Positions 6,480-40,610 of a stretch of DNA of 64,000 bases are shown here, piece after piece. A model generated the notes under the pieces. That model was given only the letters and a program-made list of their open reading frames with translations, made no database searches and had not been told where the DNA came from. This DNA is from a virus (Duplodnaviria > Caudoviricetes). The position numbers and the translations under genes are program-made. Numbering within the stretch: the first letter of the stretch is position 1; the number at the start of each line of letters is the position of its first letter. The stretch lies in the IMG/VR virus record IMGVR_UViG_3300027759_000044, one strand, 5' to 3'.

Positions 6480-7692
6480 AAATAATAAACATTCATGGTG
6501 TGTAAATGCATACCATGCTCTTAGTGCTAACAATGACGGTAGTACTAAAACATGTTGTATGATCGGGGAGGAATACAATAAATTATCTAAAACTTCTAAT
6601 GAATACTACATTGGAGTCAAAAGTATTAAAGAAAACTTTGACTGTGACGCCGCACAAAATCTTAGAGATAATCTTTCAAGGGGTATAAAAGATAATTCCT
6701 GTCGTCTATGTTGGCAAGAAGAAGAAGGCGGGAGAAAAAGTAAACGTCTACGTGATAATGAAAAATACCTACATGCTATTGAATTTGATGGTCAGGCTCC
6801 GTTTACAGGACTTGCTAAGGTAGAATTAAACTTAGGTAACAACTGTAACATTAAATGTAGAACATGTCATCCTACAATTAGTTCTACCTGGATGAAAGAG
6901 GCATTTGATTTGGATCACGCACCCCGCGGCACTACATATAAAACATTTAGTGTAGGTATGAAAAAGTATCACCAACATTATGATGATGATAGCAGTTTTT
7001 GGCCTGATCTTATTGAAAACTTAGAAACAATTAAACAATTTGATTTTTATGGTGGCGAACCTTTCTTAAGCAAAAAGATGTGGGAAATATTACGTATATG
7101 TGTTGAACGTGGATACGCCAAGGACATTGAGCTACATTATAATACAAATGGAACAGTATGGCCTAAAGATATTGAGTTATGGAAACACTTTCGCTCAGTG
7201 AATATTAGCTTTAGCATTGATGGTATTGGTGAACGTTTTGAATATATGCGTTATCCTGCAAATTGGCAAGAAGTTAGAGCAAATATGAAAAAAGCTGTAG
7301 ACTTTAATATTGAACATAATAACTTATCATTAAGTTGGTGTATGACTTTAAGTAGTCTAAACATATATTATTTGCCTGAACTATTAGATGAGTATTACAA
7401 AAACTGGACAAGTATGGGATTCTATTTGAATTTAGTTCATAATCCAAATCATTTCAATATAAGCAAAATGTCACCTGAAGCTAAACAAGCCGCATTAGAA
7501 CAACTAAACAGTATTCCAAAAGAATATGAAAATGCATGGTATCAACTTCCCGGTATTATTGGGTTTATGATGGCCGGGGAATATGATCCCACAACATGGA
7601 ATTATATGCTTAAAACAATAGATAAGCATGACAAATATAGAGAGCAAGATTATGCTAAAACATTTAGTGATTTTTCAAAGGCAATAAGATGA
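6460..7692 (+). CDS. radical SAM protein with N-terminal twitch-like domain
   Basis: CNIKCRTC, FYGGEP, YNTNG, SIDG; AAGGA SD before ATG 6460. Confidence 0.85.
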   Translation: MTTMINENNKHSWCVNAYHALSANNDGSTKTCCMIGEEYNKLSKTSNEYYIGVKSIKENFDCDAAQNLRDNLSRGIKDNSCRLCWQEEEGGRKSKRLRDNEKYLHAIEFDGQAPFTGLAKVELNLGNNCNIKCRTCHPTISSTWMKEAFDLDHAPRGTTYKTFSVGMKKYHQHYDDDSSFWPDLIENLETIKQFDFYGGEPFLSKKMWEILRICVERGYAKDIELHYNTNGTVWPKDIELWKHFRSVNISFSIDGIGERFEYMRYPANWQEVRANMKKAVDFNIEHNNLSLSWCMTLSSLNIYYLPELLDEYYKNWTSMGFYLNLVHNPNHFNISKMSPEAKQAALEQLNSIPKEYENAWYQLPGIIGFMMAGEYDPTTWNYMLKTIDKHDKYREQDYAKTFSDFSKAIR

Positions 7693-8981
7693 GTGAACAA
7701 TTCTGGAAATCTAATAACTTAATGCAGATGCACATTGAGTTAACTAATTTATGTAACGCAGCCTGTCCTATGTGTGTTAGATTTTATAACAATAGTCCAC
7801 ATACTAGACCTGATTTAGAATTTGGACAAATCACTATTGATAAGTTTAAAAAATATTTCCCACCAGAAATTATTCGTAAATGTAATCTTATTTTATTTTG
7901 CGGCGTGCACGGAGATCCATGTATTGCTAAAGATATGTATGAGATATGTGAATATATCTATGAATGTTCTGAAACTACTGCTGTGCGTGTTAATACCAAT
8001 GGGGGTATGCGTAAAAGTGATTGGTGGGCTAAACTAGGCGCATTGTTTGCTAAACGAAAAAAGAGTTTAGCCGACGATTTTTGGGAAATTATATTTAGTA
8101 TTGATGGGTTAGAAGATACCAATCATTTATATCGTAGAAACGTAGAATGGTCAGCATTGATGGAAAATGTTAAGGCATTCGTTAATGCAGGTGGAGGAGC
8201 ATCTTGGGATTATTTGATATTTAAGCATAATGAACATCAAATACAAGAGGCAAAACGTTTTAGTGAACAGATTGGCTTTAGAGAGTTTATCCCTAAAAAA
8301 GCTTTGGGTGTAAGCTATGATGTTGAGAATAAGTTGACCATCATGCCTGTATTGAATAAAGAAGGTGAATTAGATTATACAATTGAATCACCTGTTAATC
8401 CAGAAAATAGAAACTTACCTAATGCTGATGGCACCTTACCATTAATGTATTGGCCCTTTAAGGTTGATGAATATCGCAAACTTAAAGATGATAAAGAATC
8501 TATAAGAATGAATTATGATATCAACGCTGATTCAATTTATCAGACTGCAATTAATAATAAAAACTTTGATGAGCAAGATTCATGTAGTATTATTTGCAAA
8601 TCCAAGACACCATTAGGCGGCAAAGAAATATTTGTTGATAACTTTGGCAGAGTTATGCCTTGTTGTTATATCGGGACACACTTAAATGGTAAATATAATG
8701 ATATTGCATCCATGCAATTATACAATCATATGAATCAATATGGCTGGGAGCATTTTAGTTTAGATACACATACATTAGAAGAAATACTTGATGCCGGACA
8801 CTTAGATAGAGTATTTGCTGATTCATGGAAGAAAGACTCAGTTAAGAATGGTAAATTAGCATATTGTGCTAATACATGCGGTAAGAAATCAGCTATTGAT
8901 AAAATATTTTCACATGAATTGAATGATAAAGCTAGTCAAATGGAAAAGTTTAGAACACAAAATGAACATAGAGTTGATTGA
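7689..8981 (+). CDS. radical SAM protein with C-terminal SPASM/twitch domain
   Basis: CNAACPMC, GVHGDP, VNTNG, FSIDG; C-terminal GRVMPCCY...CANTC. Confidence 0.85.
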   Translation: MSEQFWKSNNLMQMHIELTNLCNAACPMCVRFYNNSPHTRPDLEFGQITIDKFKKYFPPEIIRKCNLILFCGVHGDPCIAKDMYEICEYIYECSETTAVRVNTNGGMRKSDWWAKLGALFAKRKKSLADDFWEIIFSIDGLEDTNHLYRRNVEWSALMENVKAFVNAGGGASWDYLIFKHNEHQIQEAKRFSEQIGFREFIPKKALGVSYDVENKLTIMPVLNKEGELDYTIESPVNPENRNLPNADGTLPLMYWPFKVDEYRKLKDDKESIRMNYDINADSIYQTAINNKNFDEQDSCSIICKSKTPLGGKEIFVDNFGRVMPCCYIGTHLNGKYNDIASMQLYNHMNQYGWEHFSLDTHTLEEILDAGHLDRVFADSWKKDSVKNGKLAYCANTCGKKSAIDKIFSHELNDKASQMEKFRTQNEHRVD

Positions 8982-11038
8982 TGGACAGCAAAAAACAGTC
9001 AGGATATAAAAAACTATTTACATTAAAAGTATCTAATCCTAAACCCAAAGTTGATACTGATTTTGATGATAAACATACTAAAGTTATGGCAGCAATATTG
9101 CCATATGCTAGAATTAAACCACAAAAAAACTTAATTGATGTTGCTACTGAGGATATAAGTCGTAAAACAAGTGTAATGTATATGTTATTGCCTCAATGGG
9201 CAAAGATGTTCGCACCCTATAATGTAGCCAGACTTGTTGCCCTAACCAAAGCCGCTGGGTATAGAACCACCGCAGTTGATTTAAATGCTAAAGCAGGACA
9301 AGAATATTCTAAATGGGATATTGACTTTGATCCATGGAGTAGTGCAAGAGAATGGAAATGGTTAGAAAACACATATCATACAGAGCTACATAAACACTTA
9401 GAACCTTTGTTAGAAAAATACTTAGACTATATCGGTGAAGTTAAACCCGATGTTATTGGCTTTAGTATATATTATTGTAACGAAGAACCAACTAAGTGGA
9501 TGGCAAAAGAAATAAAAAAACGTTATCCGAACATTGTTATAATGGTAGGAGGTCCGCAATGTCATCAGAGTTATTGGACACCCATACCTGAGTTTGATTA
9601 CATAGTATCAGGTGAGGGTGAAAAGATGGTGTTAGAGATACTAGAAGAAATAGAATCTGGTGTAAGACCAACGGAACAAAAATGGTTAAGACAAGAAGAG
9701 GGTCAACGATTAAACTTAGATGCATTACCTAGACCTGATTACAGTCATTTCAACTTTAGAGAATATGCAATGCCCAATGGTGCAAACGCAGAACTAAGTA
9801 GAGGGTGTGTAGCTAAATGTGTGTTTTGTAGTGAGACACACTTTTGGAAATTTAGAGGAAGGCAAGCAACATCTATTATAGATGAAGTAAGTGATTTATA
9901 TCACAACTATGGAATTGATGTTATTTGGTTTTTAGATAGTTTAGTTAACGGCAATCTTAATGAACTTAGAGCATTTGCTAAGGGTGTTGTAGCTAGAGGA
10001 TTAAAAATACATTGGACCGGATACGCAAGATGTGATGGTCGTATGGATTTAACTTACTTAAAAGACCTAGCGGATTCCGGATGTTTAAGTTTAAGCTATG
10101 GTATTGAATCAGGATCAAATAAAGTATTAAAAGCTATGGATAAGGGAGTTACTGTTGAAGAAATAGAACAGAACTTAAGAGATGGAACTATAGTAGGAAT
10201 AGAAGCATTCACTAATTGGATTGTAGGTTTTCCGGCAGAAGAACACCAAGACTTCTATGAAACACTGACCTTAATTTGGAGAAATAGAAACAACAATATT
10301 ACAGATATTGCCGGTGGACATGGGTTTACTATTCCTCCGGATACCATTGTAGGACAAGCATCAGAACAATATGGAATCATTAAAGCTTATTACTTAAACA
10401 ATTGGATTAAGGAAGACTTTACCAATAGTAAACTACATAGATTAGTTAGAGTAAAGACGTTCAACATACTATTACACTATCTTGTAACCAAGCTTGATAT
10501 GGGTTGTAGTGGTATGAGACCAACAATTGAATCATTTTATACTCTTAATGTTAAAAACAACACACCACTAGAGATGGAGTTTGAGTCATTTGATTTCAAT
10601 ATAATCAATACAGGTAATAATTTTGCTGATTCATTGATGAATGAAATATGGCCTTTGTTAAGACTGTTTTGGAAAGCACAGGGCGCATATGATATTGAGA
10701 TTATATTTGACCCAGCCCAGGATTTAAATGAGTTTAGTGATAGATTAGCAGGAAACTATTCAGCTAGTTATAAGTTCTCAATAGATGAGAATGGTAATTG
10801 GAATGCTAATTTTGATTGTGTTTATAAGCAAGATGATAATGCATGGAGATATTCGGATTATTCGAGAGCAGATTCAGTTGCAGCCTCACGTGCTAGACAA
10901 TTAGCAGAACCAGACTCTGGTGGCATAAGTACCTGGACAATGGAAAAATATAAAAAACATATGACATTGTTAGATGAGTTAATATTAGTAGATTTCTCAT
11001 TTGAACACAAATACATTAGTAATGGAATTTGGAACTAA
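8978..11038 (+). CDS. cobalamin (B12)-binding radical SAM protein (class B methylase-like)
   Basis: B12-binding domain (PDVIGFS...VMVGGP...DYIVSGEGE) followed by SRGCVAKCVFC and GIESGS. Confidence 0.85.
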   Translation: MMDSKKQSGYKKLFTLKVSNPKPKVDTDFDDKHTKVMAAILPYARIKPQKNLIDVATEDISRKTSVMYMLLPQWAKMFAPYNVARLVALTKAAGYRTTAVDLNAKAGQEYSKWDIDFDPWSSAREWKWLENTYHTELHKHLEPLLEKYLDYIGEVKPDVIGFSIYYCNEEPTKWMAKEIKKRYPNIVIMVGGPQCHQSYWTPIPEFDYIVSGEGEKMVLEILEEIESGVRPTEQKWLRQEEGQRLNLDALPRPDYSHFNFREYAMPNGANAELSRGCVAKCVFCSETHFWKFRGRQATSIIDEVSDLYHNYGIDVIWFLDSLVNGNLNELRAFAKGVVARGLKIHWTGYARCDGRMDLTYLKDLADSGCLSLSYGIESGSNKVLKAMDKGVTVEEIEQNLRDGTIVGIEAFTNWIVGFPAEEHQDFYETLTLIWRNRNNNITDIAGGHGFTIPPDTIVGQASEQYGIIKAYYLNNWIKEDFTNSKLHRLVRVKTFNILLHYLVTKLDMGCSGMRPTIESFYTLNVKNNTPLEMEFESFDFNIINTGNNFADSLMNEIWPLLRLFWKAQGAYDIEIIFDPAQDLNEFSDRLAGNYSASYKFSIDENGNWNANFDCVYKQDDNAWRYSDYSRADSVAASRARQLAEPDSGGISTWTMEKYKKHMTLLDELILVDFSFEHKYISNGIWN

Positions 11039-11808
11039 ATATCACTATGGATAAAATAGATATAGATTCATTTGATAGGATAGTAGCGTACGGTTGTAGT
11101 TATACTGCAGGTGATGAGTTGTTAGACCATGAAATATTAGGTATTAGTTTTGAAGCATGTAATAAATTAAAAAATTCTTATAAAAAATTATATCCTTATA
11201 ATTTTTATAAGAATTTACCAAAAGATGTTTTATATAAAATAGAAACAACCAACCCACAAGTGTCATGGGCCGGACAGTTAGCTAAACAGTTGAATAAACC
11301 TTTTCTAAATAGAGCAAAAGGTGGCTCTGGTATAGATGAAATTTTGTTCACTGTGGTATCTGATAGGACAAATAAAACCATATCGGATAGAGATTTGATT
11401 GTAGTTGGATTAACCTATCCAGAAAGAATACTTCATATAACTGATAACCATATATGTACTTTACATCTAGGTAATCAACATGGCTGGCCGTCGGCCGATA
11501 CACATAAAGCAAGTGTTGAATTATGGAATAATAGTAATACTTTGTTTAACTATTACAAATCATTATTCATCTTAACTAAATTGGGATTAAATATTAAATT
11601 ACAACCAATTTGCATGCCTTCATTTCAGGATATAAATAAAAAACTATGTGATCAGGTTATTATGCCTTTAAGGGATGAAATAGCAGACTACATGTTTTTT
11701 ACGACAGAAACGTTAAATGTAGATTTGCCATACAAGTGTGGTTTTGGACATGTAGCAATTGAGGCTCATATTGAGTTAGCAGACAAAATTCACAAACAAT
11801 ATTTTTAA
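11029..11808 (+). CDS. SGNH/GDSL-hydrolase-like protein
   Basis: Block I-like YGCSYT, block II-like NRAKGGSG, C-terminal His motif GHVAIEAH. Confidence 0.55.
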   Translation: MELNITMDKIDIDSFDRIVAYGCSYTAGDELLDHEILGISFEACNKLKNSYKKLYPYNFYKNLPKDVLYKIETTNPQVSWAGQLAKQLNKPFLNRAKGGSGIDEILFTVVSDRTNKTISDRDLIVVGLTYPERILHITDNHICTLHLGNQHGWPSADTHKASVELWNNSNTLFNYYKSLFILTKLGLNIKLQPICMPSFQDINKKLCDQVIMPLRDEIADYMFFTTETLNVDLPYKCGFGHVAIEAHIELADKIHKQYF

Positions 11809-11810
11809 AC

Positions 11811-12641
11811 ATGAGTAATACTTTTAAATTAAACGACATAAAACGAGTAGTAGCTTACGGATGTAGTTATACAGCCGGAGTTGAGTTAGCAGACGCTGAT
11901 TTTATTCCGCATCTTACTTTAGACGAAATTAATGCTGAGAAAAAAGCATTAGGGCAACATCTGTTTTATTCAAAGTATCCTGCGGTACTGTTTCAAGCTC
12001 CTCCGGAAAAGAAACAACTTGAGTATAATAGGGCCTGGCCAAAACATTTGATTAATTATTTAGAACTGCCGTTAGATTATTTAAATCGTTCAATTGCCGG
12101 GGCATCAATGGAAGCGATCGTATTTGCTATAGAACATGATTTACACAATGGCATAATTAATGATGATGATTTGATAGTAGTAGGTGTAACTAGCGCAGAT
12201 AGGATATTAACAATTAATGATGAAGGCTCGCCTAGTAGCCTAGTATTACATGATTTAGATTCTAGATGGACTAGCCAAGAGTTTAGAAAAATGTTTACTA
12301 TGGAAATTGCTAACGATCATTGGTTATTATACAATTGGTATCGTTCAGTAAAGTACATTGATATGTTATCAAAAACACTTAACAATAGGATATTACAAGT
12401 ATATTTACACACCAATGATCAGGCCTATAAAAATGTATTCAATGTACATAATAATGAATTTTTAAACATAATCAATTCATTGGAAAATATTGAATCAATT
12501 TTGGATAAAGATTTGTCTTTTGGTAAGGTAGAACCATATTGGAGTCATAAAACAGAACACGGCTTTTATCATCCTTACGAGATTCTACATAAAAATTTAG
12601 CTAAGATATTAGCAGAAAAAATTAAAGAAAAATATATATGA
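11811..12641 (+). CDS. SGNH/GDSL-hydrolase-like protein (paralogue of the upstream gene)
   Basis: VVAYGCSYTAG, NRSIAGAS, DLIVVGVT..DR, YHPYEILH. Confidence 0.55.
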   Translation: MSNTFKLNDIKRVVAYGCSYTAGVELADADFIPHLTLDEINAEKKALGQHLFYSKYPAVLFQAPPEKKQLEYNRAWPKHLINYLELPLDYLNRSIAGASMEAIVFAIEHDLHNGIINDDDLIVVGVTSADRILTINDEGSPSSLVLHDLDSRWTSQEFRKMFTMEIANDHWLLYNWYRSVKYIDMLSKTLNNRILQVYLHTNDQAYKNVFNVHNNEFLNIINSLENIESILDKDLSFGKVEPYWSHKTEHGFYHPYEILHKNLAKILAEKIKEKYI

Positions 12642-13861
12642 AAAAAGAAACCTTTTGTTCCTTACCGTTTAGTGCATTATTCTTAGGAAGTGATGGTGGT
12701 GTAAGACCCTGTTGTTCATTACGAGGAGAGCTAGGTAATATCAATGATAATTCAATTGAGGAAATTATTCACGGGAAAATTGCTACTTCTATTAGACAAT
12801 CCATTATTAATAATGAGATGCATTCTATGTGTAGCCAATGCCAAGAATTAGAGTCCAGAGGCGCTAGAACAGAACGTTCAGGTACTATTGAAATGTTTGA
12901 CAAGTTTAAAGATTATACCGAAAAAGACTTTTTATTAGAAAAACTTGACCTACGTTGGAGTAATACTTGTAACTTAACATGTAATTATTGTTATGAATAT
13001 TTTAGTTCTAAATGGGCAGAAATTAAGGGTATTAAAGTAAACGCAAATAAAGAAACAGCAGAAGAAAAGGTATTCTCATTCATTGAACAAAATTTACAAG
13101 ACAATCCAAACGTAAGATTTAATGTTAACTTACTAGGAGGCGAACCTTTATTACAAAAACCTAACTCTAGGCTTATTGAGTTAATTAAAAACAATTCAGA
13201 TATATACATTTTGACTAACTTAACAGTACCTCTAGAAACTAATAAAGTAGCAAATTTACTGTTAGAAGGTAATAATGTTGCATGGGGAATTAGTTTTGAG
13301 ACAATAGGTAATAGATTTGAATATGTAAGAAAAGGTGGAGATTGGAACCAGTTAGTTAAAAATCTACGATATTTAAATTTAAACAAGGTTAAGCACATTG
13401 ATTCTCATCCTTTATACTGTGTGTATAGTGCGTTTAATTTAGTAGAATACTTTGAGTTTTTAGGAGAAGAAGGATATTTTCATAAACAATATTGGCAAGT
13501 ATTACAGAATATTCCCGGTCTTGATGTATTTCAATTACCTTACCCAATGAAGGTTAAAGCTATTAAAGAGTTAGAGACATGTTTTAATCGTTATGAAAAT
13601 ACTTTTGATTTGTCATTACTAAGATCCGTTCATAGTGGATTAGTAAGTTCTATTGACAAACAATATTGGGATAGTACCGCATGTTTTACATGGCTTAATG
13701 ATTTAGATAAATCTATACCTGGTCAAAAACAATCATTTATTGATAATTGGGCAGAATTGTATGATGATATGTTATCTACTTATAATTGGCTTACTGATAG
13801 TAATGGAAATATGAATCCTAAAACAGAATATGAGAGACCAATCTATGTTAGAAAGATATAA
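12638..13861 (+). CDS. radical SAM protein with N-terminal twitch-like domain
   Basis: FCSLPF...VRPCC...CSQC, then CNLTCNYC and LLGGEP. Confidence 0.85.
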   Translation: MKKETFCSLPFSALFLGSDGGVRPCCSLRGELGNINDNSIEEIIHGKIATSIRQSIINNEMHSMCSQCQELESRGARTERSGTIEMFDKFKDYTEKDFLLEKLDLRWSNTCNLTCNYCYEYFSSKWAEIKGIKVNANKETAEEKVFSFIEQNLQDNPNVRFNVNLLGGEPLLQKPNSRLIELIKNNSDIYILTNLTVPLETNKVANLLLEGNNVAWGISFETIGNRFEYVRKGGDWNQLVKNLRYLNLNKVKHIDSHPLYCVYSAFNLVEYFEFLGEEGYFHKQYWQVLQNIPGLDVFQLPYPMKVKAIKELETCFNRYENTFDLSLLRSVHSGLVSSIDKQYWDSTACFTWLNDLDKSIPGQKQSFIDNWAELYDDMLSTYNWLTDSNGNMNPKTEYERPIYVRKI

Positions 13862-23000: not shown

Positions 23001-23812
23001 CTATTGAATCTAAGAATATATTGATTACGAATATGGGAGGCACACGTATTGTTGTACCCAAAGAAGCTAATAATTATGTTGAAAAGGAGTTGTATGATTA
23101 TCCATACATTTCCAAAGCAACAAAGATAGGACAGTCAACGCCACTGGATATAGTCTTCCTAAGTAACGGTGAAACCGGAGCTGACGAGAACTACGAACAC
23201 TTACTGAACGTGACTAAAGGACTGAAAAATCGTGTTGTTAGAGTCGACGGGGTCAATGGTCGTGTTGCTGCCTATCATGCAGCCGCAATTGCTAGTCAAA
23301 CATCTTGGATGTTTACGGTGTTTGCTAAATTAAAAGTTAATAGCAAGTTTGACTGGACATGGCAACCTGATAGATTACAAGTACCTAAACATTATATCTT
23401 CTATGCAAGTAACCCTGTTAATGGATTAGTATATGGTCACCAAGCTATGATTGCGTACAACAAACAGATTACATTAAGTAATATGGGCAAAGGATTAGAC
23501 TTTACATTAGATAGTGAGCATGAAGTTGTTGAGATTAATTCGGGTGTAGCACGTTACAATACAGATGAGTTTAGTACATGGCGCACTAGTTTCCGTGAAG
23601 CTATTAAGTTACGATTAGATGATAGTGCTATTAGTAGACACAGATTGAAAGTATGGACAACCGTTGGTGAAGGAGACTATGCCCAATATAGTACACAAGG
23701 TGCTCAACATGCTGTAGAATACTTTGAACAAGTCAATGGGGATTTAGACAAATTACGACTAAGTTATGATTGGCCTTGGTTGCAAGAGTATTTTAATACT
23801 AAATACAATTGA
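20063..23812 (+). CDS. 1249-aa protein of tandem FDFSWxPD...YIYQFG repeats with a C-terminal degenerate GT-A-like domain
   Basis: Seven well-conserved repeats plus about five diverged ones; C-terminal DIVFLSNGE...VDGVNG...NPVNGLVYG resembles 2749..3702. Confidence 0.7.
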   Translation: MLRDVFYYGNKPNVHPREKHAIDLVDARQQATTEHFWIINEYCDYTNFDWDWDFDFLPDEEVWTGEHNNVWPNKQNKDSGTWLCSTQYSDIIIYRADVEPVNRKNTKHNNWVILDKIDETKFDFSWEPNPYDPPYIYKWGCKFYPAEIKHYVEYHVEGATNIKYMPDVVELSPEWDKWKINYSIDKSSFDFSWRPDPREPAFIYMFGNTQYLAETMPTVEYHVSGATEQKFIDDLSMRAKILPNSTRFEHLENCDGIDYSWVPDPWSPPYIYAWGNQWNKPEDKISIQYVVEGATEYKYMEDRATRKPCMDNWEIPPYVIKNSFDFSWEPNPHDPPYIYQFGTVHQKTGGPRYTVPGATELKYIDTVKAEVVAWRFTNWLIPRNVDQASFDWSWHPDDTDPPYIYQFPSTWSKTGGPKFTVEGATETKYIDSLIAKVKQDMTHWSIPEGLDTSEFDFSWHPDVEDKPYIYQFGTQWQKTNGPVFTAPLCDETTPIKYIDIIKAKYLPNKTNWIIPAGFDETKFDFSWHPDATSPAYIYQFGTLLDDVHLEDGPKYVTPDNDGTIVLMENILLSDTVVQYPQYYIETTLEALIEQHIDEIFWALRKNINYTKFDFAWQPTKEQAFNINTFGSPDSELTQTYLVNGKMWQKGYRDISFIENTKLDEEYLSKLFKQVDAFFVDKGNKESATRFEQLKIHFPTLQKTRYLNSWVDTINRCINKSTTELCWILNSELDYTNFDFNYYPNPWQMTMVHVFGTQWSHWGSTFMVNKETFAEDTKYVKIIEHLTNLNFVKTKRAIASNCLYDVYLIDYGNDGVNDIVSLIESKIKRENVYTIKYETDYLTTLKNMLYELGIKKDHYIWVCSSICDYTNFDFTYICDPFSLEQLHVFPSDKQKFGDTFFINVNKLRILVEDLDKLENIEKINFNQHQKVKRLPAPSFVTDADTHLNFKKHSYNFPYAVFTTSDNLIAPDINDEPISMWSIESKNILITNMGGTRIVVPKEANNYVEKELYDYPYISKATKIGQSTPLDIVFLSNGETGADENYEHLLNVTKGLKNRVVRVDGVNGRVAAYHAAAIASQTSWMFTVFAKLKVNSKFDWTWQPDRLQVPKHYIFYASNPVNGLVYGHQAMIAYNKQITLSNMGKGLDFTLDSEHEVVEINSGVARYNTDEFSTWRTSFREAIKLRLDDSAISRHRLKVWTTVGEGDYAQYSTQGAQHAVEYFEQVNGDLDKLRLSYDWPWLQEYFNTKYN

Positions 23813-24087
23813 AGTTATTGCTGTATGAAGCGATGTAAAATAAGTTCAAGACGCCGGGGCAGTGCCGGCCATCTCCACCTAAGTGTATGAGGTATATTTA
23901 GGTGGGGATGACACAGGATCGATTGGGCAAAGAGTAACAAAGTGGACAGCTCGGCAAAGCAGAAGCCGTTAGGGTTGGGGGAACTCGGCCGTAGAAGCAA
24001 AAAAAGTAACCGCAAACGACTCACAGTTCGCATTGGCAGCTTGATAAAGGCTACCTAGGGTAAGACATACCTCGTAACAGAAACTCA
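23811..24087 (+). ncRNA. ssrA: circularly permuted (two-piece) tmRNA
   Basis: T-arm GCCGG-GGCAGTG-CCGGC (23853-23869) and acceptor 3' strand CATCTCC-A (23870-23877) lie upstream of the 5' strand GGGGATG (23904-23910); G3:U70 pair; tag ORF ANDSQFALAA then TGA TAA at 24012-24047. Outer ends are approximate. Confidence 0.9.
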
Positions 24088-24110
24088 GAAAAGGCTCTTC
24101 GGAGCCTTTC
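24088..24110 (+). terminator. intrinsic terminator after tmRNA
   Basis: AAAGGCTC-TTCG-GAGCCTTT hairpin. Confidence 0.75.
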
Positions 24111-24171
24111 CTATTTAATAAATATCATGATATTTCTCAACTAAAAAGCAAATAAATACTATCTCTAGAGG

Positions 24172-25317
24172 ATGATAATAAAAATGAAAAGAATTCTCGC
24201 TATAGTTGCCATGCTGGGTATGGCATTCACTACGCAAGCACAAACTACTACTACATCAGGAACAACCGGCGGTACAACCACTGGCACAAGTACACTGATT
24301 AATCAAAACTCAGCAATATCAGGTGGATACTCTTCTACCAGTTTAGTAGATACTAATAGTACAAGTAACAGTACCAGTACGGTTACTTCTAATAGTAATA
24401 CTACTAGTAATAGCAACAGCACCAGTACCGCTGCCGTTAATAGTACTAGTGCAAATACTAACAATAATACTAGTACTAGCGTAAACACTAACAATAACAT
24501 CAATAGTGGTACAAGTACTGTTAACAATAACAATGTTAGCTCCGGAACAATGACATACAATAACAATAACGTTAATACCGGAACAATGACTTATAACAAT
24601 AACAATGTTAGTACAAGCACAAGTAATAACACAAACATTAACAAAAATGAAAATACTGGTACAATGACATACAATAATAACAATGTCAGTACAGCCACTA
24701 ATAACAATAACAATGTTAGTACAAGCACAAGTAATAACAATAACGTTAATACTGGTGATATGACTAATAGGAATATCAATACTTCAACAAGTGCTAGTAC
24801 TTCAGTTAACAACAATGTTAATCAAAATAATTCAGTTAATACAAATATTCAACAAGGTGAGTTAACCAACAAGAATATTAATCAAACTGAGATTACACAA
24901 CGTGTTATTCAGCCGCCACCAACTGCTGTAGCTCCTGCTATGTTGTCAGGTGGTAATGCTGACCTATGTTCTACTGGTAGTAGTGGTAGTGTACAGACGC
25001 AAGTATTTGGTGTAAGTTCAGGTGGAACTATACGTGACATGAATTGTGAACGATTAAAATTATCTAAAACTCTATACGATATGGGTATGAAAGTGGCCGC
25101 AGTGGCTACTATGTGTCAAGACCGTCGTGTGTTTGATGCTATGTTAGCCGCAGGAACACCTTGCCCATACGAAGGCAAGATAGGTGAACAAGCTAAAGCA
25201 CAATGGGAAGCTAATCCAGATAAGATACCTAAAGTAGATGAGGAAAAACTAGATGACACTTATAAGAAAGTTGGCATTGGGGCTGTTCTTGGTCTTATTG
25301 TCAACAAAATATTCTAA
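24172..25317 (+). CDS. secreted/membrane protein with Asn/Thr/Ser-rich repeats and a Cys-containing C-terminal domain
   Basis: Signal peptide MKRILAIVAMLGMAFTTQA (start may be 24184); NNNNV(S/N)T repeats; C-terminal PPPTAVAP...CERLKL...MCQD...GTPCP and a hydrophobic tail. Confidence 0.7.
   Translation: MIIKMKRILAIVAMLGMAFTTQAQTTTTSGTTGGTTTGTSTLINQNSAISGGYSSTSLVDTNSTSNSTSTVTSNSNTTSNSNSTSTAAVNSTSANTNNNTSTSVNTNNNINSGTSTVNNNNVSSGTMTYNNNNVNTGTMTYNNNNVSTSTSNNTNINKNENTGTMTYNNNNVSTATNNNNNVSTSTSNNNNVNTGDMTNRNINTSTSASTSVNNNVNQNNSVNTNIQQGELTNKNINQTEITQRVIQPPPTAVAPAMLSGGNADLCSTGSSGSVQTQVFGVSSGGTIRDMNCERLKLSKTLYDMGMKVAAVATMCQDRRVFDAMLAAGTPCPYEGKIGEQAKAQWEANPDKIPKVDEEKLDDTYKKVGIGAVLGLIVNKIF
24593..24739 (+). 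repeat. 39-bp identical direct repeat inside the Asn-rich coding repeat
   Basis: ATAACAATAACAATGTTAGTACAAGCACAAGTAATAACA at 24593-24631 and 24701-24739. Confidence 0.8.
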
Positions 25318-36034: not shown

Positions 36035-37531
36035 ATGGCATTACCAGGCATACAAATAGGTCCAGGCATTGATATAGGAGCTGGTATTTTAATACAACAA
36101 GCTCCTAGTGGTAGTTCTCCGGTTAATACCGTAGCACCGGTTGTAAGTGGTACACCAAATTTTGGTCAAACACTATCAACTACTAATGGCACTTGGACTG
36201 GCACAGCTACAATAACTTTCACATATCAATGGCAACGAAATGGTACTAATATAGGAAGTGCAACGTCTAGTAGCTATACTTTAGTAGCCGCAGATGTAGG
36301 TAATCCAATCAGATGCGTAGTAACTGGTACTAACGGCATTGGTAATTCATCTGCTAATTCTAATGCCACAGCTAATGTATCAGCTATAGCCCCAGATGCG
36401 CCAACTATAGGTACAGCTACAGCTACAGGGTCAACCACAGCAACAGTAGCATATACAGCTCCGGCAAGTAATGGTGGTGCCACTATTACAACATATACAG
36501 CAACAAGTAGTCCAGGTAGCATCACTGGTACATTAAGCCAAGCAGGTAGTGGAACCATCACTGTTTCTGGATTAACAGCAAGCACAAGTTATACATTTAC
36601 AGTTACTGCTACAAATAGTATTGGTACAAGTAGCCCAAGTGCTGCAAGTAATAGTATTACAACATCAGCACCGGCAGCCCCATCAACAGTTGATTACCTT
36701 GTAGTTGCAGGCGGCGGTGGAGGTAACACTAATGATGGTGGTGGTGGTGGCGCCGGTGGATTTAGATATGGTACTTCTTTCTCTATTGGATCTTCATTTA
36801 CTGTAACAGTTGGCGGTGGTGGCGCGGCTCAAACAGGACAAGCAAGTTATGGTAATGCTGGGTCAAATTCAGTATTTTCAAGTATTACGTCAGCCGGCGG
36901 CGGTGCTGGCGGTTCTGGTCAAGGCGGTGGAAATTGGAAAAACGGTGGTGATGGCGGCTCTGGTGGCGGAGGCGGAAACGGTGGCGGAGATAGTTCCGTA
37001 GGAGGCGCCGGCAATACACCAAGCACAAGCCCATCTCAAGGTTTTGGCGGCGGTGCTGGAAGTGGTACTGGTCCAGCTTATCCTGGTGGCGGAGGTGGAG
37101 GAGCTAGTGCGGTTGGGGGTAATGGTCAAGCTCCAAATGGCCCCGGAGGTTCTGGTGGTGCAGGTTCTGTTAACCCAATTACAGGATCAACAACAGGTCA
37201 ATTAAGTGGCGGTAATTACTATTTAGCCGGCGGTGGCGGTGGCGGTGTTGATAATGGCGCGACTCCAGCGGCCGGCGGACTTGGAGGAGGCGGTACAGGA
37301 GGAAATAATGGTACTGCTGCCACAAATGGAACTGCCAATACTGGCGGTGGCGCCGGATCATCAGGTAGATCCACTACAGGTAGTGGTGGCTCTGGTGTTG
37401 TTATTATTGCCTATCCATCTTCATATGCTGACCTTACAACAATTGGTGGTGGTCTAACTTATGCTAAAACAACATCAGGTGGAAACACTATATATACATT
37501 TACAGCTGGAACAGGAACAGTTACGGTGTAA
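36035..37531 (+). CDS. Gly-rich fibre/adhesin: Ig-like + FN3 + polyglycine domain
   Basis: PVNTVAPVVSG Ig module, PDAPTIG...YTFTVTATN FN3, DYLVVAGGGG and GGGG motifs. Confidence 0.75.
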   Translation: MALPGIQIGPGIDIGAGILIQQAPSGSSPVNTVAPVVSGTPNFGQTLSTTNGTWTGTATITFTYQWQRNGTNIGSATSSSYTLVAADVGNPIRCVVTGTNGIGNSSANSNATANVSAIAPDAPTIGTATATGSTTATVAYTAPASNGGATITTYTATSSPGSITGTLSQAGSGTITVSGLTASTSYTFTVTATNSIGTSSPSAASNSITTSAPAAPSTVDYLVVAGGGGGNTNDGGGGGAGGFRYGTSFSIGSSFTVTVGGGGAAQTGQASYGNAGSNSVFSSITSAGGGAGGSGQGGGNWKNGGDGGSGGGGGNGGGDSSVGGAGNTPSTSPSQGFGGGAGSGTGPAYPGGGGGGASAVGGNGQAPNGPGGSGGAGSVNPITGSTTGQLSGGNYYLAGGGGGGVDNGATPAAGGLGGGGTGGNNGTAATNGTANTGGGAGSSGRSTTGSGGSGVVIIAYPSSYADLTTIGGGLTYAKTTSGGNTIYTFTAGTGTVTV

Positions 37532-37687
37532 TTAAAGTCGGCATAAATAATATTAATATATATTGGAAATAATAATATGGCAGTGACAATAGGCGGAAAC
37601 ATAACAATAGGTGGTGGTATTACTCTAATACCAGAATCAAGCACAAGTCCCCCAGTTAATACCGTAGCACCGGTTGTAAGTGGTACA
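36122..37687 (+). repeat. 33-bp identical direct repeat at the start of Ig modules of fibre paralogues
   Basis: GTTAATACCGTAGCACCGGTTGTAAGTGGTACA at 36122-36154 and 37655-37687. Confidence 0.8.
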
Positions 37688-38965
37688 GCTAATTTTGGTC
37701 AAACACTATCAACTACTGATGGTACTTGGACTGGCACAGCTACAATAACATTTACATATCAATGGCAACGCAATGGAGTTAATATAGGAAGTGCTACTGC
37801 TAGCACATATACATTAGTAGCTGCAGATGTGGGTAATCCAATTAGATGTGTAGTAACTGGTACAAATGGTATTGGTAACTCATCTGCTAATTCTAATGCT
37901 ACATCTAATGTATCAGCAATTTCACCAGGAGCTCCTACAATAGGTACAGCCACAGCTACAGGTGCTACTACTGCAACTGTATCATATACCGCTCCAGCAA
38001 GTAATGGCGGTGCTACTATTACAACATACACAGCAACAAGCAGTCCTGGTGGCATCACCGGTACATTAAGCCAAGCAGGTAGTGGTACTATTAATGTTAC
38101 TGGATTAACAGCTGGTACAAGTTACACATTTACTGTTACTGCTACTAACAGTGTTGGTACTGGTTCAGCTAGTGCATCAAGTAATAGCATTACGACAGAT
38201 GCCGCATTTAGTTATCTTGTTGTTGCGGGCGGCGGTGGAGGATCCGGTGGCGGTGGTGGTGCAGGTGGTATGCTAACTGGTACAGCTACATTCTCTGGTT
38301 CCTATACAGTCACCGTGGGCGCAGGCGGTAGTGCTGGCACGCAAACTAGCGGAAATGCTTCTCCTGGAACTAATTCAATTATAACTGGGTATACCGCAGT
38401 TGGCGGTGGATATGGTGCTGGAGCTTATGCAGTAGTTAACGGTGGTTCTGGTGGCTCTGGTGGCGGTGGTTCAATTGGTTCTTTTATTATAGGAGTAGGA
38501 GCAGGAGGTACTGCAACAGCAGGACAAGGTTATGCAGGCGGATCAGGCACTGCAACAACTACCGCATATGGCTGGCTTTCTGGTGGCGGTGGTGGTGCTG
38601 GCGGGGTAGGTGCTAGTACCCAAGATATTGATACTGGTGCTGTAGGAGGTGGTGCGGGTGGTGCCGGCTTAGCATCATCTATTACAGGATCTTCTGTTAC
38701 CTATGCTGCTGGAGGTAAAGGCTATTGGTCTACCGGTGTCACCGGAGATGCCACAGCAAATTCAGGAAACGGCGGAGGTGGTTCAAGAACTTTTCAGGCG
38801 GCAAGTGCTGGATGGAACGGAGGCTCTGGTGTAGTAATTATTGCTTACCCAGATAGTTATCCAGCTATCTCCTCAATTGGAGGTGGTTTAACATACACCC
38901 AACCATCTAGAGCTGGTTACCGAGTGTATAGATTTACTGCTGGTACAGGAACTATTACTTTCTAA
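37577..38965 (+). CDS. Gly-rich fibre/adhesin paralogue (Ig + FN3 + polyglycine)
   Basis: Same architecture; ATAAATA at 37543-37549. Confidence 0.75.
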   Translation: MAVTIGGNITIGGGITLIPESSTSPPVNTVAPVVSGTANFGQTLSTTDGTWTGTATITFTYQWQRNGVNIGSATASTYTLVAADVGNPIRCVVTGTNGIGNSSANSNATSNVSAISPGAPTIGTATATGATTATVSYTAPASNGGATITTYTATSSPGGITGTLSQAGSGTINVTGLTAGTSYTFTVTATNSVGTGSASASSNSITTDAAFSYLVVAGGGGGSGGGGGAGGMLTGTATFSGSYTVTVGAGGSAGTQTSGNASPGTNSIITGYTAVGGGYGAGAYAVVNGGSGGSGGGGSIGSFIIGVGAGGTATAGQGYAGGSGTATTTAYGWLSGGGGGAGGVGASTQDIDTGAVGGGAGGAGLASSITGSSVTYAAGGKGYWSTGVTGDATANSGNGGGGSRTFQAASAGWNGGSGVVIIAYPDSYPAISSIGGGLTYTQPSRAGYRVYRFTAGTGTITF

Positions 38966-39003
38966 AGTTAACATAAATATAAATATATAATAGGAATAAT
39001 AGC

Positions 39004-40212
39004 ATGGCATTACAAATAGGTGGAAATATTGTTATTGGTGGTAATATCACACTTCAAATAGAGTCTGGTGTTACGGTGCCAGGTGCTCCTACAATAGGTA
39101 CAGCTACAGCTACAGGTGCATCAACAGCCACAGTAGCATTTACTGCTCCAGCAAGTAATGGTAATGCCACGATTACAACGTATACAGCGACAAGTAGTCC
39201 TGGCGGTATCACTGGTACACTAAGTCAAGCAGGTAGTGGTACTATTAATGTTACTGGATTAAGTCCAAGTACAAGTTATACATTTACTGTAACTGCTACT
39301 AATAGTGTTGGTACAGGTAGTCCAAGTTCGGCAAGCAATAGCATAACTACTGCAGCATTAAGTGCTTCAATTCAATATTTAGTAGTTGCAGGAGGCGGTG
39401 GATCAGCCGGCAGTGGTAGTGTCAATCCAGGTGGCGGCGGAGCCGGCGGATTTAGATCATCTACTCTTTCGGCATCTTTAAGCACAAATTACACAGTAAC
39501 CGTAGGTGGCGGAGGAGCCGGAGTACCTAATAATAGTCAGAGTGATGGATCACCTGGTTCTAACTCAGTATTCAGCTCTATAACTTCTGCAGGTGGAGGT
39601 GGTGCTAATGGATTTAACACTGCTACCGGCGGTAGCGGTGGTTCTGGCTCCGGCGGTTTTGGCTCTGGAGGTGGCGGTTCAACTAAAGGTTTTGGTAATA
39701 CTCCAAGCACAAGTCCTTCACAAGGTAATGACGGTGGTAATGGGGGCGGTTCTCCATACTATGGAGGTGGAGGTGGAGGTGCAGGAGGTGCAGGCTCTAA
39801 TGGCGGATCAAGCGTAGGAAATGGTGGTATTGGAGCAGCCAATCCAATTGCAGGATCAACGACAGGTGAATTCTCTGGTGGACAATATTACCTAGCTGGT
39901 GGTGGCGGTTCTGGTAGTAATGGACCAACTGCATCAGCCGGTGGTCTTGGTGGTGGTGGGTACGGTAGTAATGGATCAGCAGTTGCGGCTGCAGGAGCAA
40001 CTAACACCGGAGGTGGCGGGGGCGGAGGTACTAATGTCGGAAGTCCTTATGATCAAGGTAAAGCCGGCGGATCAGGTGTTGTTGTACTTAAATATCCAGA
40101 TACTTATACAATTACAGTTGGCGGCGGGCTAACAAGCTCAACATCTTCACCATCAGGTGGATACAAAATAACAACATTTACTGCCGGAACAGGCAACGTA
40201 CAATGGAATTAA
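39004..40212 (+). CDS. Gly-rich fibre/adhesin paralogue (FN3 + polyglycine, no Ig module)
   Basis: FN3 module directly after the N-terminal IG repeat; TATAAATA at 38978-38985. Confidence 0.75.
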   Translation: MALQIGGNIVIGGNITLQIESGVTVPGAPTIGTATATGASTATVAFTAPASNGNATITTYTATSSPGGITGTLSQAGSGTINVTGLSPSTSYTFTVTATNSVGTGSPSSASNSITTAALSASIQYLVVAGGGGSAGSGSVNPGGGGAGGFRSSTLSASLSTNYTVTVGGGGAGVPNNSQSDGSPGSNSVFSSITSAGGGGANGFNTATGGSGGSGSGGFGSGGGGSTKGFGNTPSTSPSQGNDGGNGGGSPYYGGGGGGAGGAGSNGGSSVGNGGIGAANPIAGSTTGEFSGGQYYLAGGGGSGSNGPTASAGGLGGGGYGSNGSAVAAAGATNTGGGGGGGTNVGSPYDQGKAGGSGVVVLKYPDTYTITVGGGLTSSTSSPSGGYKITTFTAGTGNVQWN

Positions 40213-40228
40213 TTAAAAAGGAAAAAAT

Positions 40229-40594: not shown

Positions 40595-40610
40595 TAATTA
40601 AGGTAGTAGT

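What the first reader, a model, noticed from the sequence alone, without database searches (positions are those of the whole stretch)
23780..24110. Circularly permuted two-piece tmRNA in a phage
Seen: the 3' acceptor half precedes the 5' half. The intervening segment extends the acceptor stem as a hairpin (ACCTAAGTGTA-TGAGG-TATATTTAGGT). G3:U70 is present, CCA is not fully encoded (ACCT), helix 2 pairings are present (TTGGGC/GTTCAA, AGTAAC/GTTATT), and the tag reads ANDSQFALAA. TAAATA (23800-23805) and TTGCAA-18-TACAAT lie upstream; a terminator lies downstream. Established: permuted tmRNAs occur in alphaproteobacteria, some cyanobacteria and some betaproteobacteria, and the GGCRGUA T-loop is the alphaproteobacterial type. 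The T-loop here (GGCAGTG) is alpha-like while the porin looks betaproteobacterial, so this may be a phage-specific lineage. Inference: it supplies ribosome rescue or retargets degradation during infection.
Basis: partly seen in the sequence, partly recalled or inferred. Interest (0 to 1): 0.7.

Follow-up and report, generated by a model that had tools for sequence, protein, structure and literature searches.

The report
Two-piece tmRNA gene in jumbo phage
A giant freshwater phage carries a complete, back-to-front ("two-piece") gene for tmRNA, the RNA that frees stalled ribosomes; this kind of phage cargo is already published, and the less ordinary point is that this one belongs to a virus-only branch that mixes features of two bacterial types and that the usual detection program misses.

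Summary
Window 23780-24113 (+) holds a circularly permuted tmRNA gene: Rfam tmRNA_permuted 104.3 bits (cut-off 47) and beta_tmRNA 98.6 bits (cut-off 84). G3:U70 is invariant, the tag is ANDSQFALAA, CCA is not fully encoded (ACC-T), a 24-nt spacer extends the acceptor stem, and the gene has its own promoter and terminator.

On 26 related viral sequences, 94% of cells pair and 19 of 37 pairs change on both sides.

The window is a T4-like jumbo phage. TerL is about 50% identical to Sinorhizobium phage Phosso and the PA5oct group, and relatives imply a genome of about 350 kb.

Phage two-piece tmRNAs are already published (Melnitz; PMC9004378), and this scan has met this lineage on other DNA, so this is a new member of a known kind.

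New here:
- About 50 IMG/VR contigs form an all-viral clade (98/95 support).
- The clade is a mosaic: the T-loop and D-loop analogue are alpha-type, while the spacer design, the missing CCA and the 10-residue tag are beta-type.
- ARAGORN of 23 clade loci.
- Promoter class swaps between relatives in front of a fixed RNA start.

No smpB was found in the window or in five partial relatives. Processing and tagging remain untested.

The parts
23780..23809 (+). Sigma-70-type promoter: -35 TTGCAA (23780-85), 18-nt spacer, -10 TACAAT (23804-09). It lies inside the 3' end of the upstream 1249-aa ORF (stop at 23810-12). A late-type TAAATA (23800-05) overlaps the -10 element.
   Evidence: Pattern scan, (9 of 12 matches; not significant alone). 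Relatives have TTGACA-17-TATAAT or TTGACA...TATACT with the same 4-nt distance to GTTATT, and others have TAAATA 3-4 nt before GTTAT. The segment aligns to the promoter part of the Rfam beta_tmRNA model.
23814..23879 (+). Acceptor piece (3' part of the mature tmRNA). It holds helix-2 strands GCUGU (23820-24) and GUUCAA (23844-49), T-arm 23853-69 with T-loop GGCAGUG (23858-64), acceptor 3' strand 23870-76, discriminator A at 23877 and CC at 23878-79. The terminal A is not encoded.
   Evidence: Rfam alignments. Covariation, (T-stem 100% paired with 2 covarying pairs; helix GCUGU/ACAGC 98.4%; GUUCAA/UUGGGC 96.8%).
23880..23903 (+). Intervening spacer, TAAGTGTAT-GAG-GTATATTTAGGT. It pairs with itself and extends the acceptor stem to an 18-bp hairpin. 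It is presumed to be removed during maturation.
   Evidence: Sequence; MFE fold. The same stem with 10 different loop triplets occurs in 16 unique relatives. The design is nearly the same in cellular beta-type L220 (TAAGCGCAT...GTGCGTTTAGAT) and in the Rfam beta consensus.
23904..24011 (+). 5' part of the coding piece. It holds acceptor 5' strand GGGGAUG (23904-10; G3 = 23906), D-loop analogue ACACAGGAUCGA (23911-22), helix-2 strands UUGGGC (23923-28) and ACAGC (23946-50), hairpin CGGC/GCCG (23952-68), a second variable hairpin (23969-94), and an A-rich run with UAA just before the resume codon.
   Evidence: G3:U70 is UG in 26 of 26 sequences. The D-loop analogue is alpha-like.
24012..24047 (+). 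Tag reading frame: GCA AAC GAC TCA CAG TTC GCA TTG GCA GCT = ANDSQFALAA, then TGA TAA.
   Evidence: All 26 relatives keep an open tag of the form AN[D/A]...[L/M]AA. Cellular beta tags are ANDE..A.AA of 10 residues, and alpha tags start ANDN.
24048..24113 (+). 3' domain and terminator: stem UAGGGU/ACCUCG (24056-61 with 24069-74), AACAGAA (24076-82), and terminator hairpin AAAGGCUC-UUCG-GAGCCUUU (24090-24109) with tail CCTATTTAAT.
   Evidence: terminator-like sites: 3 found against 0.6 expected. Terminator stem 90% paired with 6 of 8 pairs covarying; 3' stem 80.5% paired with 3 covarying pairs.

Best explanation
This is a functional ssrA gene of the circularly permuted type, carried by a T4-like jumbo phage of lakes.

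Shown here:
- The gene order is acceptor piece, spacer, coding piece.
- The tRNA-like fold has the alanine identity pair G3:U70.
- Two helix-2 segments can hold the two pieces together.
- The tag frame is conserved.
- The gene has its own promoter and terminator.
- All helices covary across a virus-only clade.

Inferred:
- Host RNA polymerase with sigma-70 starts at about 23814-23816 and stops at the hairpin 24090-24109.
- RNase P cuts before G1 (23904).
- The 3' side is trimmed back to ACC (23879), and a CCA-adding enzyme supplies the missing A.
- The 24-nt spacer hairpin is discarded.
- The two pieces stay paired through the acceptor stem and helix 2.
- Host AlaRS charges the RNA.
- Host SmpB and EF-Tu deliver it to ribosomes stalled on broken mRNAs. 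No phage smpB was found.
- Translation resumes at GCA (24012) and adds ANDSQFALAA, a canonical ...ALAA degradation tag.

The likely benefit to the phage is to keep ribosomes recycling while the infected cell is full of truncated mRNAs and host ssrA transcription is shut down. This would fit with the phage's large tRNA set.
For: - Rfam scores: RF04321 104.3 bits (cut-off 47) and RF01850 98.6 bits (cut-off 84).
- Covariation on 26 sequences: 94.1% of cells paired against 35-49% when the partners are slid. 19 of 37 pairs change on both sides, and 0 of 500 shuffles reach this.
- G3:U70 is invariant.
- The tag stays open, with a conserved AND... start and ...LAA end, while its middle varies.
- The same RNA start is served by sigma-70 or late-type promoters in relatives, which marks a selected transcription unit.
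- The terminator stem covaries.
- Contigs of four lake metatranscriptome runs from three studies lie on the gene body, some identical to the window (23917-23969 with 0 differences; 23928-24081 with 2). This is a weak sign of expression, because DNA can be present in RNA libraries.
- Phage context. Relatives are 27-57% complete at 95-202 kb.
- Published precedent for phage two-piece tmRNA: PMC9004378. Precedent for tmRNA in huge phages: PMC7162821.
Against: - No direct evidence of cleavage into two pieces, of CCA completion, of charging or of tagging.
- In the precursor, the leader and trailer around the RNase P site are fully base-paired (18 bp). That is an unusual substrate, and the order of processing steps is unknown.
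- smpB was not found in the 64-kb window (best E = 1.4) or in five partial relatives. The RNA therefore has to work with a host SmpB whose identity is unknown.
- The T-loop and D-loop analogue are alpha-type, while the tag and spacer are beta-type, so compatibility with any one host's machinery is assumed rather than shown.
- Pseudoknots typical of tmRNA could not be established for the window.
Confidence: 0.78

Rival explanations
1. Regulatory or retargeting tmRNA. The RNA is processed and charged as above, but its main role is not bulk ribosome rescue. It might mark particular host or phage proteins for timed degradation, or it might act as a gauge of stalled ribosomes that feeds into the timing of the infection.
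For: - The promoter class differs between relatives (sigma-70 early-type against late-type TAAATA), so the timing of expression has been re-set repeatedly.
- The middle of the tag varies freely among relatives.
- The idea that phages use tmRNA to sense host state is mentioned in PMC7162821. Selective tagging is proposed in PMC9004378.
Against: - tmRNA has no known way of choosing its substrates other than an empty A site.
- The tag ends are canonical.
- Nothing in the locus suggests a dedicated adaptor.
Confidence: 0.1
2. Decoy. The RNA binds host SmpB, EF-Tu or AlaRS but does not complete trans-translation. It would damp host rescue, as proposed for the tRNA-like-domain-only molecule of mycobacteriophage DS6A.
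For: - A precedent is described in PMC4131195 and PMC11915505.
- No phage smpB was found.
- The elbow of the tRNA-like domain (alpha-type) does not match the beta-type remainder.
Against: - A full mRNA-like domain with a conserved resume context (A-rich run, UAA, GCA) and a conserved open tag ending in LAA is kept in all 26 relatives. A decoy would not need this.
Confidence: 0.06
3. Passenger. The gene is a recently captured host ssrA gene or attachment-site remnant with no role for the phage.
For: - ssrA is a common integration site, and fragments of it occur in prophages (PMC9004378).
- The neighbourhood of the gene differs among most relatives.
Against: - The gene is complete.
- The phage is T4-like, and no integrase was seen among the roughly 30 larger ORFs of the window that were scanned against PHROGs; most of the window's ORFs were not scanned.
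- The clade contains only viral contigs and has diverged with compensatory changes within phages.
- No cellular sequence of this type appeared among those sampled.
Confidence: 0.03
4. Unprocessed single-chain RNA. The 18-bp closed acceptor-plus-spacer hairpin is never opened, so the molecule cannot be charged and does something other than trans-translation.
For: - The RNase P site lies in a fully paired helix.
- One RNA-library contig of a relative runs through its 97-nt spacer.
Against: - The cellular beta-type genes have the same spacer design and also lack an encoded CCA, and they belong to genomes that depend on tmRNA.
- G3:U70 and the discriminator A are invariant, which only matters if the RNA is charged.
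- The bridging contig may be precursor RNA or DNA.
Confidence: 0.03

Closest known systems
Phage-encoded two-piece tmRNAs of aquatic T4-like myophages (Methylophilales phage Melnitz and pelagimyophages; Buchholz et al. 2022, PMC9004378)
   Same: A complete, circularly permuted ssrA gene in a lytic T4-like phage of an aquatic habitat, with no phage smpB reported or found. It is proposed to sustain translation or to tag proteins.
   Different: Melnitz's gene is reported as alpha-type, is found by ARAGORN, and sits behind a glutamine riboswitch. The window's gene belongs to a different, ARAGORN-invisible clade (0 of 23 loci called). It has a plain sigma-70-type promoter, no riboswitch hit and no fully encoded CCA, and it sits in a jumbo phage of about 350 kb. 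No blastn similarity to any of 50,697 GenBank phage records.
Cellular beta-type two-piece tmRNA (Rfam RF01850 beta_tmRNA)
   Same: - Gene order.
- A promoter directly in front of the RNA start.
- A spacer that begins AAG and ends TTTAG·T and extends the acceptor stem.
- The terminal A of CCA is not encoded (L220, L221 and the Rfam consensus).
- A 10-residue tag ending FALAA.
- A terminal hairpin.
- The window scores above the family's cut-off (98.6 against 84).
   Different: - Cellular members score 160-296 bits.
- Their T-loop is the standard UUCRAYU and their D-loop analogue is UACUGGUUUCGA, against GGCAGUG and ACACAGGAUCGA here.
- The fourth tag residue is E in 5 of 5 beta cells and S here.
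Alphaproteobacterial two-piece tmRNA (Rfam RF01849 alpha_tmRNA)
   Same: - T-loop of the GGCRGU(A/G) type. GGCAGTG itself occurs in 3 of 32 sampled alpha genomes and in Rhodospirillales, Acetobacteraceae, Micavibrio and Rickettsiales.
- D-loop analogue A·ACAGGAUCGA.
- The closest relatives of the window pass the family cut-off (76.2 against 50).
   Different: - Alpha genes encode CCA (31 of 32).
- Their tags start ANDN (26 of 27) and are often longer.
- The window's closest relatives score higher on the beta model (99.3 against 76.2).
Permuted tmRNA of Sinorhizobium jumbo phage Phosso (PV764938.1 349596-350198, minus strand; not annotated in the record)
   Same: It is in a cultured jumbo phage with the nearest TerL (50% identity). 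It is a permuted tmRNA scoring 113 bits on RF04321.
   Different: Phosso's gene is plainly alpha-type: T-loop GGCGGTA, CCA encoded, tag ANDNVSTKVALAA. Its spacer is about 410 nt.

Membership tests
Two-piece (circularly permuted) tmRNA, Rfam RF04321 tmRNA_permuted | Covariance-model score at or above the curated gathering score | tested here: met
   104.3 bits against a cut-off of 47, E = 3e-19, full-length match 1-213. Sampled cellular alpha members score 89-171 bits.
Two-piece (circularly permuted) tmRNA, Rfam RF04321 tmRNA_permuted | Permuted gene order: T-arm and 3' acceptor strand upstream of the 5' acceptor strand, which is followed by the tag frame | tested here: met
   23853-23879 precedes 23904-23910, and the tag is at 24012-24041.
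Two-piece (circularly permuted) tmRNA, Rfam RF04321 tmRNA_permuted | 7-bp acceptor stem with the G3:U70 alanine identity pair and discriminator A | tested here: met
   GGGGAUG/CAUCUCC; G3:U70 is UG in 26 of 26 relatives; the helix is 100% paired.
Two-piece (circularly permuted) tmRNA, Rfam RF04321 tmRNA_permuted | Helix 2 pairings that hold the acceptor piece and the coding piece together | tested here: met
   GUUCAA/UUGGGC is 96.8% paired with 4 covarying pairs. GCUGU/ACAGC is 98.4% paired with 3 covarying pairs.
Two-piece (circularly permuted) tmRNA, Rfam RF04321 tmRNA_permuted | Short tag frame that starts with an Ala codon and ends in a hydrophobic ...AA tail plus a stop | tested here: met
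   ANDSQFALAA followed by TGA TAA. The frame is kept in all 26 relatives.
Two-piece (circularly permuted) tmRNA, Rfam RF04321 tmRNA_permuted | Precursor cleaved into two RNAs, 3' CCA present on the acceptor piece, alanylation | not testable with these tools
   Only assembled contigs of RNA libraries were on offer, and these cannot show ends.
Two-piece (circularly permuted) tmRNA, Rfam RF04321 tmRNA_permuted | Works with SmpB | tested here: inconclusive
   No SmpB in the window or in five relatives that are 27-57% complete. The whole genome is not held, so a host SmpB is assumed.
Rfam RF01850 beta_tmRNA subtype | Score at or above the gathering score of 84 bits | tested here: met
   98.6 bits. 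This is far below cellular members (160-296 bits), and more distant clade members fall below the cut-off (74-79 bits).
Rfam RF01850 beta_tmRNA subtype | Standard T-loop (UUCRAYU) and D-loop analogue ..CUGGUUUCGA | tested here: not met
   GGCAGUG and ACACAGGAUCGA here. 5 of 5 cellular beta sequences have the standard forms.
Rfam RF01850 beta_tmRNA subtype | Spacer hairpin that extends the acceptor stem, with CCA not fully encoded | tested here: met
   Window TAAGTGTAT..GTATATTTAGGT after ACC. L220 has TAAGCGCAT..GTGCGTTTAGAT, and the consensus reads CCACCcAAG...UUuaGaU.
Rfam RF01849 alpha_tmRNA subtype | T-loop GGCRGUA in place of T-psi-C-R-A-N-Y | tested here: inconclusive
   The window has GGCAGUG, with the last base G instead of A. 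That exact variant is found in 3 of 32 sampled alpha genomes, and 28 of 32 have GGCRGTA.
Rfam RF01849 alpha_tmRNA subtype | Encoded CCA and a tag that begins ANDN | tested here: not met
   ACC-T and ANDS here. Alpha genomes: CCA encoded in 31 of 32, ANDN in 26 of 27.

The most novel reading that the evidence does not exclude
The window's clade is a tmRNA lineage that exists only in phages and is maintained there. It is a mosaic, with an alpha-type elbow (T-loop plus D-loop analogue, the surface that SmpB and the ribosome read) on a beta-type body (spacer with non-encoded CCA, 10-residue tag). Because ARAGORN does not see it, and the published surveys of phage tmRNAs relied on ARAGORN, phage-borne trans-translation RNAs in freshwater jumbo phages have been undercounted. 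The mosaic may reflect recombination between tmRNA types inside phages, or adaptation to hosts across classes.
Probability: 0.35. Interest if true: 0.45.

Novelty: new member of a known kind. Interest (0 to 1): 0.3.

Why it matters
The finding adds a well-documented example of large lake phages bringing their own ribosome-rescue RNA alongside big tRNA sets.

It has a practical consequence. ARAGORN missed every member tested of this clade (0 of 23 loci plus the window), while Rfam's models find it. ARAGORN was the tool used in the two main surveys of phage tmRNAs (PMC7162821, PMC9004378). Counts of phage tmRNAs, and host inferences drawn from tmRNA type, therefore need covariance-model searches.

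The mosaic of alpha-type and beta-type characters also warns against reading a phage's host class from a single tmRNA signature.

It does not open a new kind of biology. The class of element, its likely mechanism and its presence in phages are all known.

Tried and rejected
- ARAGORN on the window: nothing found. This is a tool blind spot, not evidence against the gene.
- blastn of the gene, and of its tRNA-like part, against 50,697 GenBank phage records: no real match, even at E = 10.
- RNA evidence: all 24 runs offered are kept as contigs. On the four that were laid, no contig covered the spacer (23887-23903) or the flanking coding DNA. Adapter junctions at 23913 and 23917 are not at G1 and say nothing about the mature 5' end.
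- Subtype by tree: the core of 121 columns cannot place the clade. W+beta is not rejected (AU p = 0.33), so I make no claim about a donor.
Low-GC, small-genome Burkholderiales with beta-type genes (L222, L255, L256) share several blocks with the clade but have a standard T-loop.
- Pseudoknots: I could not define PK1 or a 3' pseudoknot for the window by inspection. In one subgroup a loop GUUA pairs with a downstream UAAC or UAGC, but the window has no equivalent.
- smpB and a CCA-adding enzyme (PF01743) were not found. The phage records are fragments, so absence is not shown.
- The primary papers on the alpha and beta permuted lineages (PMC16621, PMC516066) are not held.
Full report
**What is there**

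Rfam's cmscan of the whole window gives two matches on the + strand. One is tmRNA_permuted (RF04321) at 23819-24044, with 104.3 bits against a cut-off of 47 (E = 3e-19). The other is beta_tmRNA (RF01850) at 23778-24113, with 98.6 bits against a cut-off of 84 (E = 1e-28). Both are full length. ARAGORN finds no tRNA or tmRNA anywhere in the 64 kb.

The parts, in gene order:
- A sigma-70-type promoter: TTGCAA (23780-85), 18 nt, TACAAT (23804-09).
- The acceptor piece, with T-arm 23853-69 and T-loop GGCAGUG, 3' acceptor strand CAUCUCC, discriminator A and CC. It is followed by T, so the CCA is incomplete.
- A 24-nt spacer (23880-23903) that pairs with itself and prolongs the acceptor stem to an 18-bp hairpin.
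- The coding piece, starting GGGGAUG at 23904, with G3 (23906) opposite U70 (23874).
- The tag frame at 24012-24041, ANDSQFALAA, then TGA TAA.
- A 3' domain containing AACAGAA.
- A terminator hairpin at 24090-24109.

**Context**

The window is phage DNA. It holds a large terminase, a gp32-type SSB, a UvsX-type recombinase and many auxiliary genes. TerL is 48-50% identical to Sinorhizobium phage Phosso, the Pseudomonas PA5oct group and Agrobacterium phage Atu_ph07, which are all jumbo phages. No whole genome is held. Related IMG/VR contigs of 95-202 kb are rated 27-57% complete, which implies a genome of about 350 kb. The window's G+C is about 35%, against 50% for the RNA gene. Earlier notes of this scan (unchecked) describe the same genome as an uncultured lake phage with a 26-tRNA cluster about 108 kb upstream.

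**Relatives and covariation**

A scan of IMG/VR for the T-loop plus acceptor motif found 89 contigs, where about two would be expected by chance. Nearly all show the permuted layout. A motif specific to the window's 5' half (GGGGATGACACAGGATCGA) finds 47 contigs, and 44 of them are in the first set. The window's own clade is therefore about 50 contigs, and GGCAGTG is almost fixed in it.

I aligned 26 unique members and counted an explicit structure on the alignment:
- 94.1% of cells pair, against 35-49% when partners are slid by 1-3 columns.
- 19 of 37 pairs change on both sides.
- None of 500 shuffles reaches the observed values.
- The T-stem, both helix-2 segments, the 3' stem and the terminator all covary.
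- The acceptor stem is nearly invariant, and G3:U70 is present in 26 of 26.

All 26 tags are open, begin AN[D/A] and end [L/M]AA, and vary in the middle. That pattern suggests selection on the peptide.

**Transcription unit**

Across the clade the RNA begins at a fixed (A)GTTAT, but the promoter in front of it differs. Some relatives have a textbook TTGACA-17-TATAAT (L001, L011) or TTGACA...TATACT (L017, L029). Others have a T4-late-type TAAATA 3-4 nt before GTTAT (L002, L013, L053, L054, L063, L081). The window's TTGCAA-18-TACAAT has the same 4-nt spacing to GTTATT as the sigma-70 group. Its TAAATA sits 8 nt away, which does not match the late-type group. I therefore read the window's gene as driven by host sigma-70. 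The swap of promoter class around a fixed start is independent support for the transcript's 5' boundary.

**Which subtype**

The signals are mixed.
- On the window's nearest relatives, the beta model scores 99.3 bits and the alpha model 76.2. On more distant members the order reverses (74.0 against 83.7). The cyano model stays at or below 41.
- True cellular beta-type genes are rare in Burkholderiales (3 of 151, then 3 of 41 in one family) and score 160-296 bits. Cellular alpha genes score 89-171 bits on RF04321.
- Alpha-like characters: the T-loop and the D-loop analogue (GGCAGUG and ACACAGGAUCGA; alpha has GGCRGUA in 28 of 32 and AAACAGGAUCGA; beta has UUCRAYU and UACUGGUUUCGA).
- Beta-like characters: the spacer design and the unencoded A. 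Window TAAGTGTAT..GTATATTTAGGT compares with L220 TAAGCGCAT..GTGCGTTTAGAT and the Rfam consensus CCACCcAAG...UUuaGaU. The base after ACC is T in 18 of 25 clade members but A in 31 of 32 alpha genes.
- The tag is also beta-like: 10 residues ending FALAA. Beta cells have ANDE..A.AA of 10 residues in 5 of 5, and alpha cells start ANDN in 26 of 27.
- AACAGAA, which I remembered as an alpha signature, also occurs in the beta-type L222, so it does not discriminate.

A maximum-likelihood tree was built on the core of the tRNA-like domain and helix 2 (121 columns). 22 clade members form an all-viral clade (98/95). Cellular alpha (95/76) and beta (100/97) are each separate. The AU test does not reject joining the clade with beta (p = 0.33).

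Conclusion on subtype: this is a distinct viral clade of mosaic character, and its sister group is unresolved.

**A detail on CCA**

In relative L017, all 23 tRNA genes of the adjacent array encode CCA, while its tmRNA gene does not. The missing A is therefore a property of this tmRNA design and not of the phage's RNA genes in general. It makes a CCA-adding enzyme obligatory. None was found in five partial relatives, so the host enzyme is assumed. From my own knowledge, some T4 tRNA genes likewise lack CCA and depend on host RNase BN and the CCA-adding enzyme.

**Partner protein**

An HMM built from five SmpB proteins finds nothing in the six-frame ORFs of the window (best E = 1.4, and all controls were found). 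Pfam SmpB finds nothing in five relatives. These are fragments, so a phage smpB elsewhere in the genome is not excluded.

**Expression**

Only assembled contigs of RNA libraries were available. Contigs of four lake metatranscriptome runs from three studies lie on the gene body, and some are identical to the window. This is a weak sign of expression. It says nothing about ends, processing or CCA.

**Detection bias**

ARAGORN called 11 of 11 alpha-like viral loci as permuted tmRNA. It called 0 of 23 loci of the window's clade, including those that do encode CCA. It called 5 of 5 cellular beta genes and 27 of 32 cellular alpha genes, and it missed Phosso. Both the huge-phage survey (PMC7162821) and the survey in the Melnitz paper (PMC9004378) used ARAGORN.

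**Comparison with what is known, and novelty**

Phage two-piece tmRNAs are published. Melnitz carries one, and 53 of the 133 unique tmRNA gene structures found in 402 tmRNA-carrying phage genomes were called permuted, 50 of them from aquatic phages. The 2025 tmRNA database lists 79 phage sequences. The cultured jumbo phage Phosso, the nearest by TerL, has an unannotated alpha-type permuted gene with a spacer of about 410 nt. This scan has already met look-alikes of the present RNA in 37 windows of 22 genomes and judged them ordinary new members.

The gene passes every testable defining feature of the permuted tmRNA family, so I file it as a new member of a known kind. The points that go beyond that are modest: the virus-only mosaic clade, its invisibility to ARAGORN, the conserved CCA-less spacer hairpin, and the promoter swapping.

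**Mechanism**

I commit to the ordinary one, a two-piece tmRNA that works with host SmpB to recycle ribosomes during infection (confidence about 0.78). The rivals are a regulatory or retargeting role, an SmpB decoy, a passenger gene, and an unprocessed RNA.

Noticed in passing
L052:292-710 (tRNA at 386-457); the same in L072: A tRNA-Met (CAT) gene lies inside the spacer of a permuted phage tmRNA gene, so tRNA processing enzymes would release three RNAs from one precursor.
   Followed up: no
PV764938.1 349596-350198 minus strand (L291, L292): Sinorhizobium jumbo phage Phosso has an alpha-type permuted tmRNA (113 bits on RF04321; T-loop GGCGGTA; tag ANDNVSTKVALAA) with a spacer of about 410 nt. 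It lies in a gap that carries no annotation in the record, and ARAGORN misses it as well.
   Followed up: partly
L102, L103, L105, L114, L118, L123 and about 25 more genome-contig loci: Ordinary one-piece tmRNAs of Saccharibacteria, Gracilibacteria and other candidate-phyla bacteria also carry the GGCAGTG T-loop. This 'alpha-type' loop is therefore not confined to permuted genes or to Alphaproteobacteria.
   Followed up: no
L004, L006, L012, L019, L052, L058: A second viral tmRNA group (tag ANDNGFAVALAA) nests inside cellular alpha sequences next to Micavibrio in the core tree. That suggests a separate and more recent capture than the window's clade.
   Followed up: no
L017:80-4356 and L017:6567-6923; L076:247-3080: In relatives the tmRNA gene sits beside or inside large tRNA arrays (24 tRNAs in L017; the tmRNA is between tRNAs in L076). 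In the window there is no tRNA within 64 kb. All 23 L017 tRNA genes checked encode CCA, but its tmRNA does not.
   Followed up: partly
L020, L035, L039, L046, L073 (spacers of 135-183 nt); L005, L077 (94-104 nt): Some members have long spacers that start with ATG-containing sequence. Earlier notes of this scan report small protein genes in such spacers. I did not test this here, and the window's spacer is the minimal 24-nt form.
   Followed up: no
window 36035-42059: Four consecutive paralogous proteins (498, 462, 402 and 482 aa), each with an fn3 domain plus a Gly_rich_2 domain, lie in an island of 44-48% G+C within a window of about 35% G+C. They match virion or tail protein PHROGs.
   Followed up: no
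window 3704-13861 and 50944-51933: An unusually dense set of radical-SAM-domain proteins (at least six) lies beside sugar-nucleotide epimerase, aminotransferase and carbamoyltransferase genes.
   Followed up: no
window 24172-25317: The 381-aa secreted-looking protein just downstream of the tmRNA has more than 2,900 metagenomic relatives, no Pfam domain and only an unknown-function PHROG. It is not a recognisable porin.
   Followed up: partly
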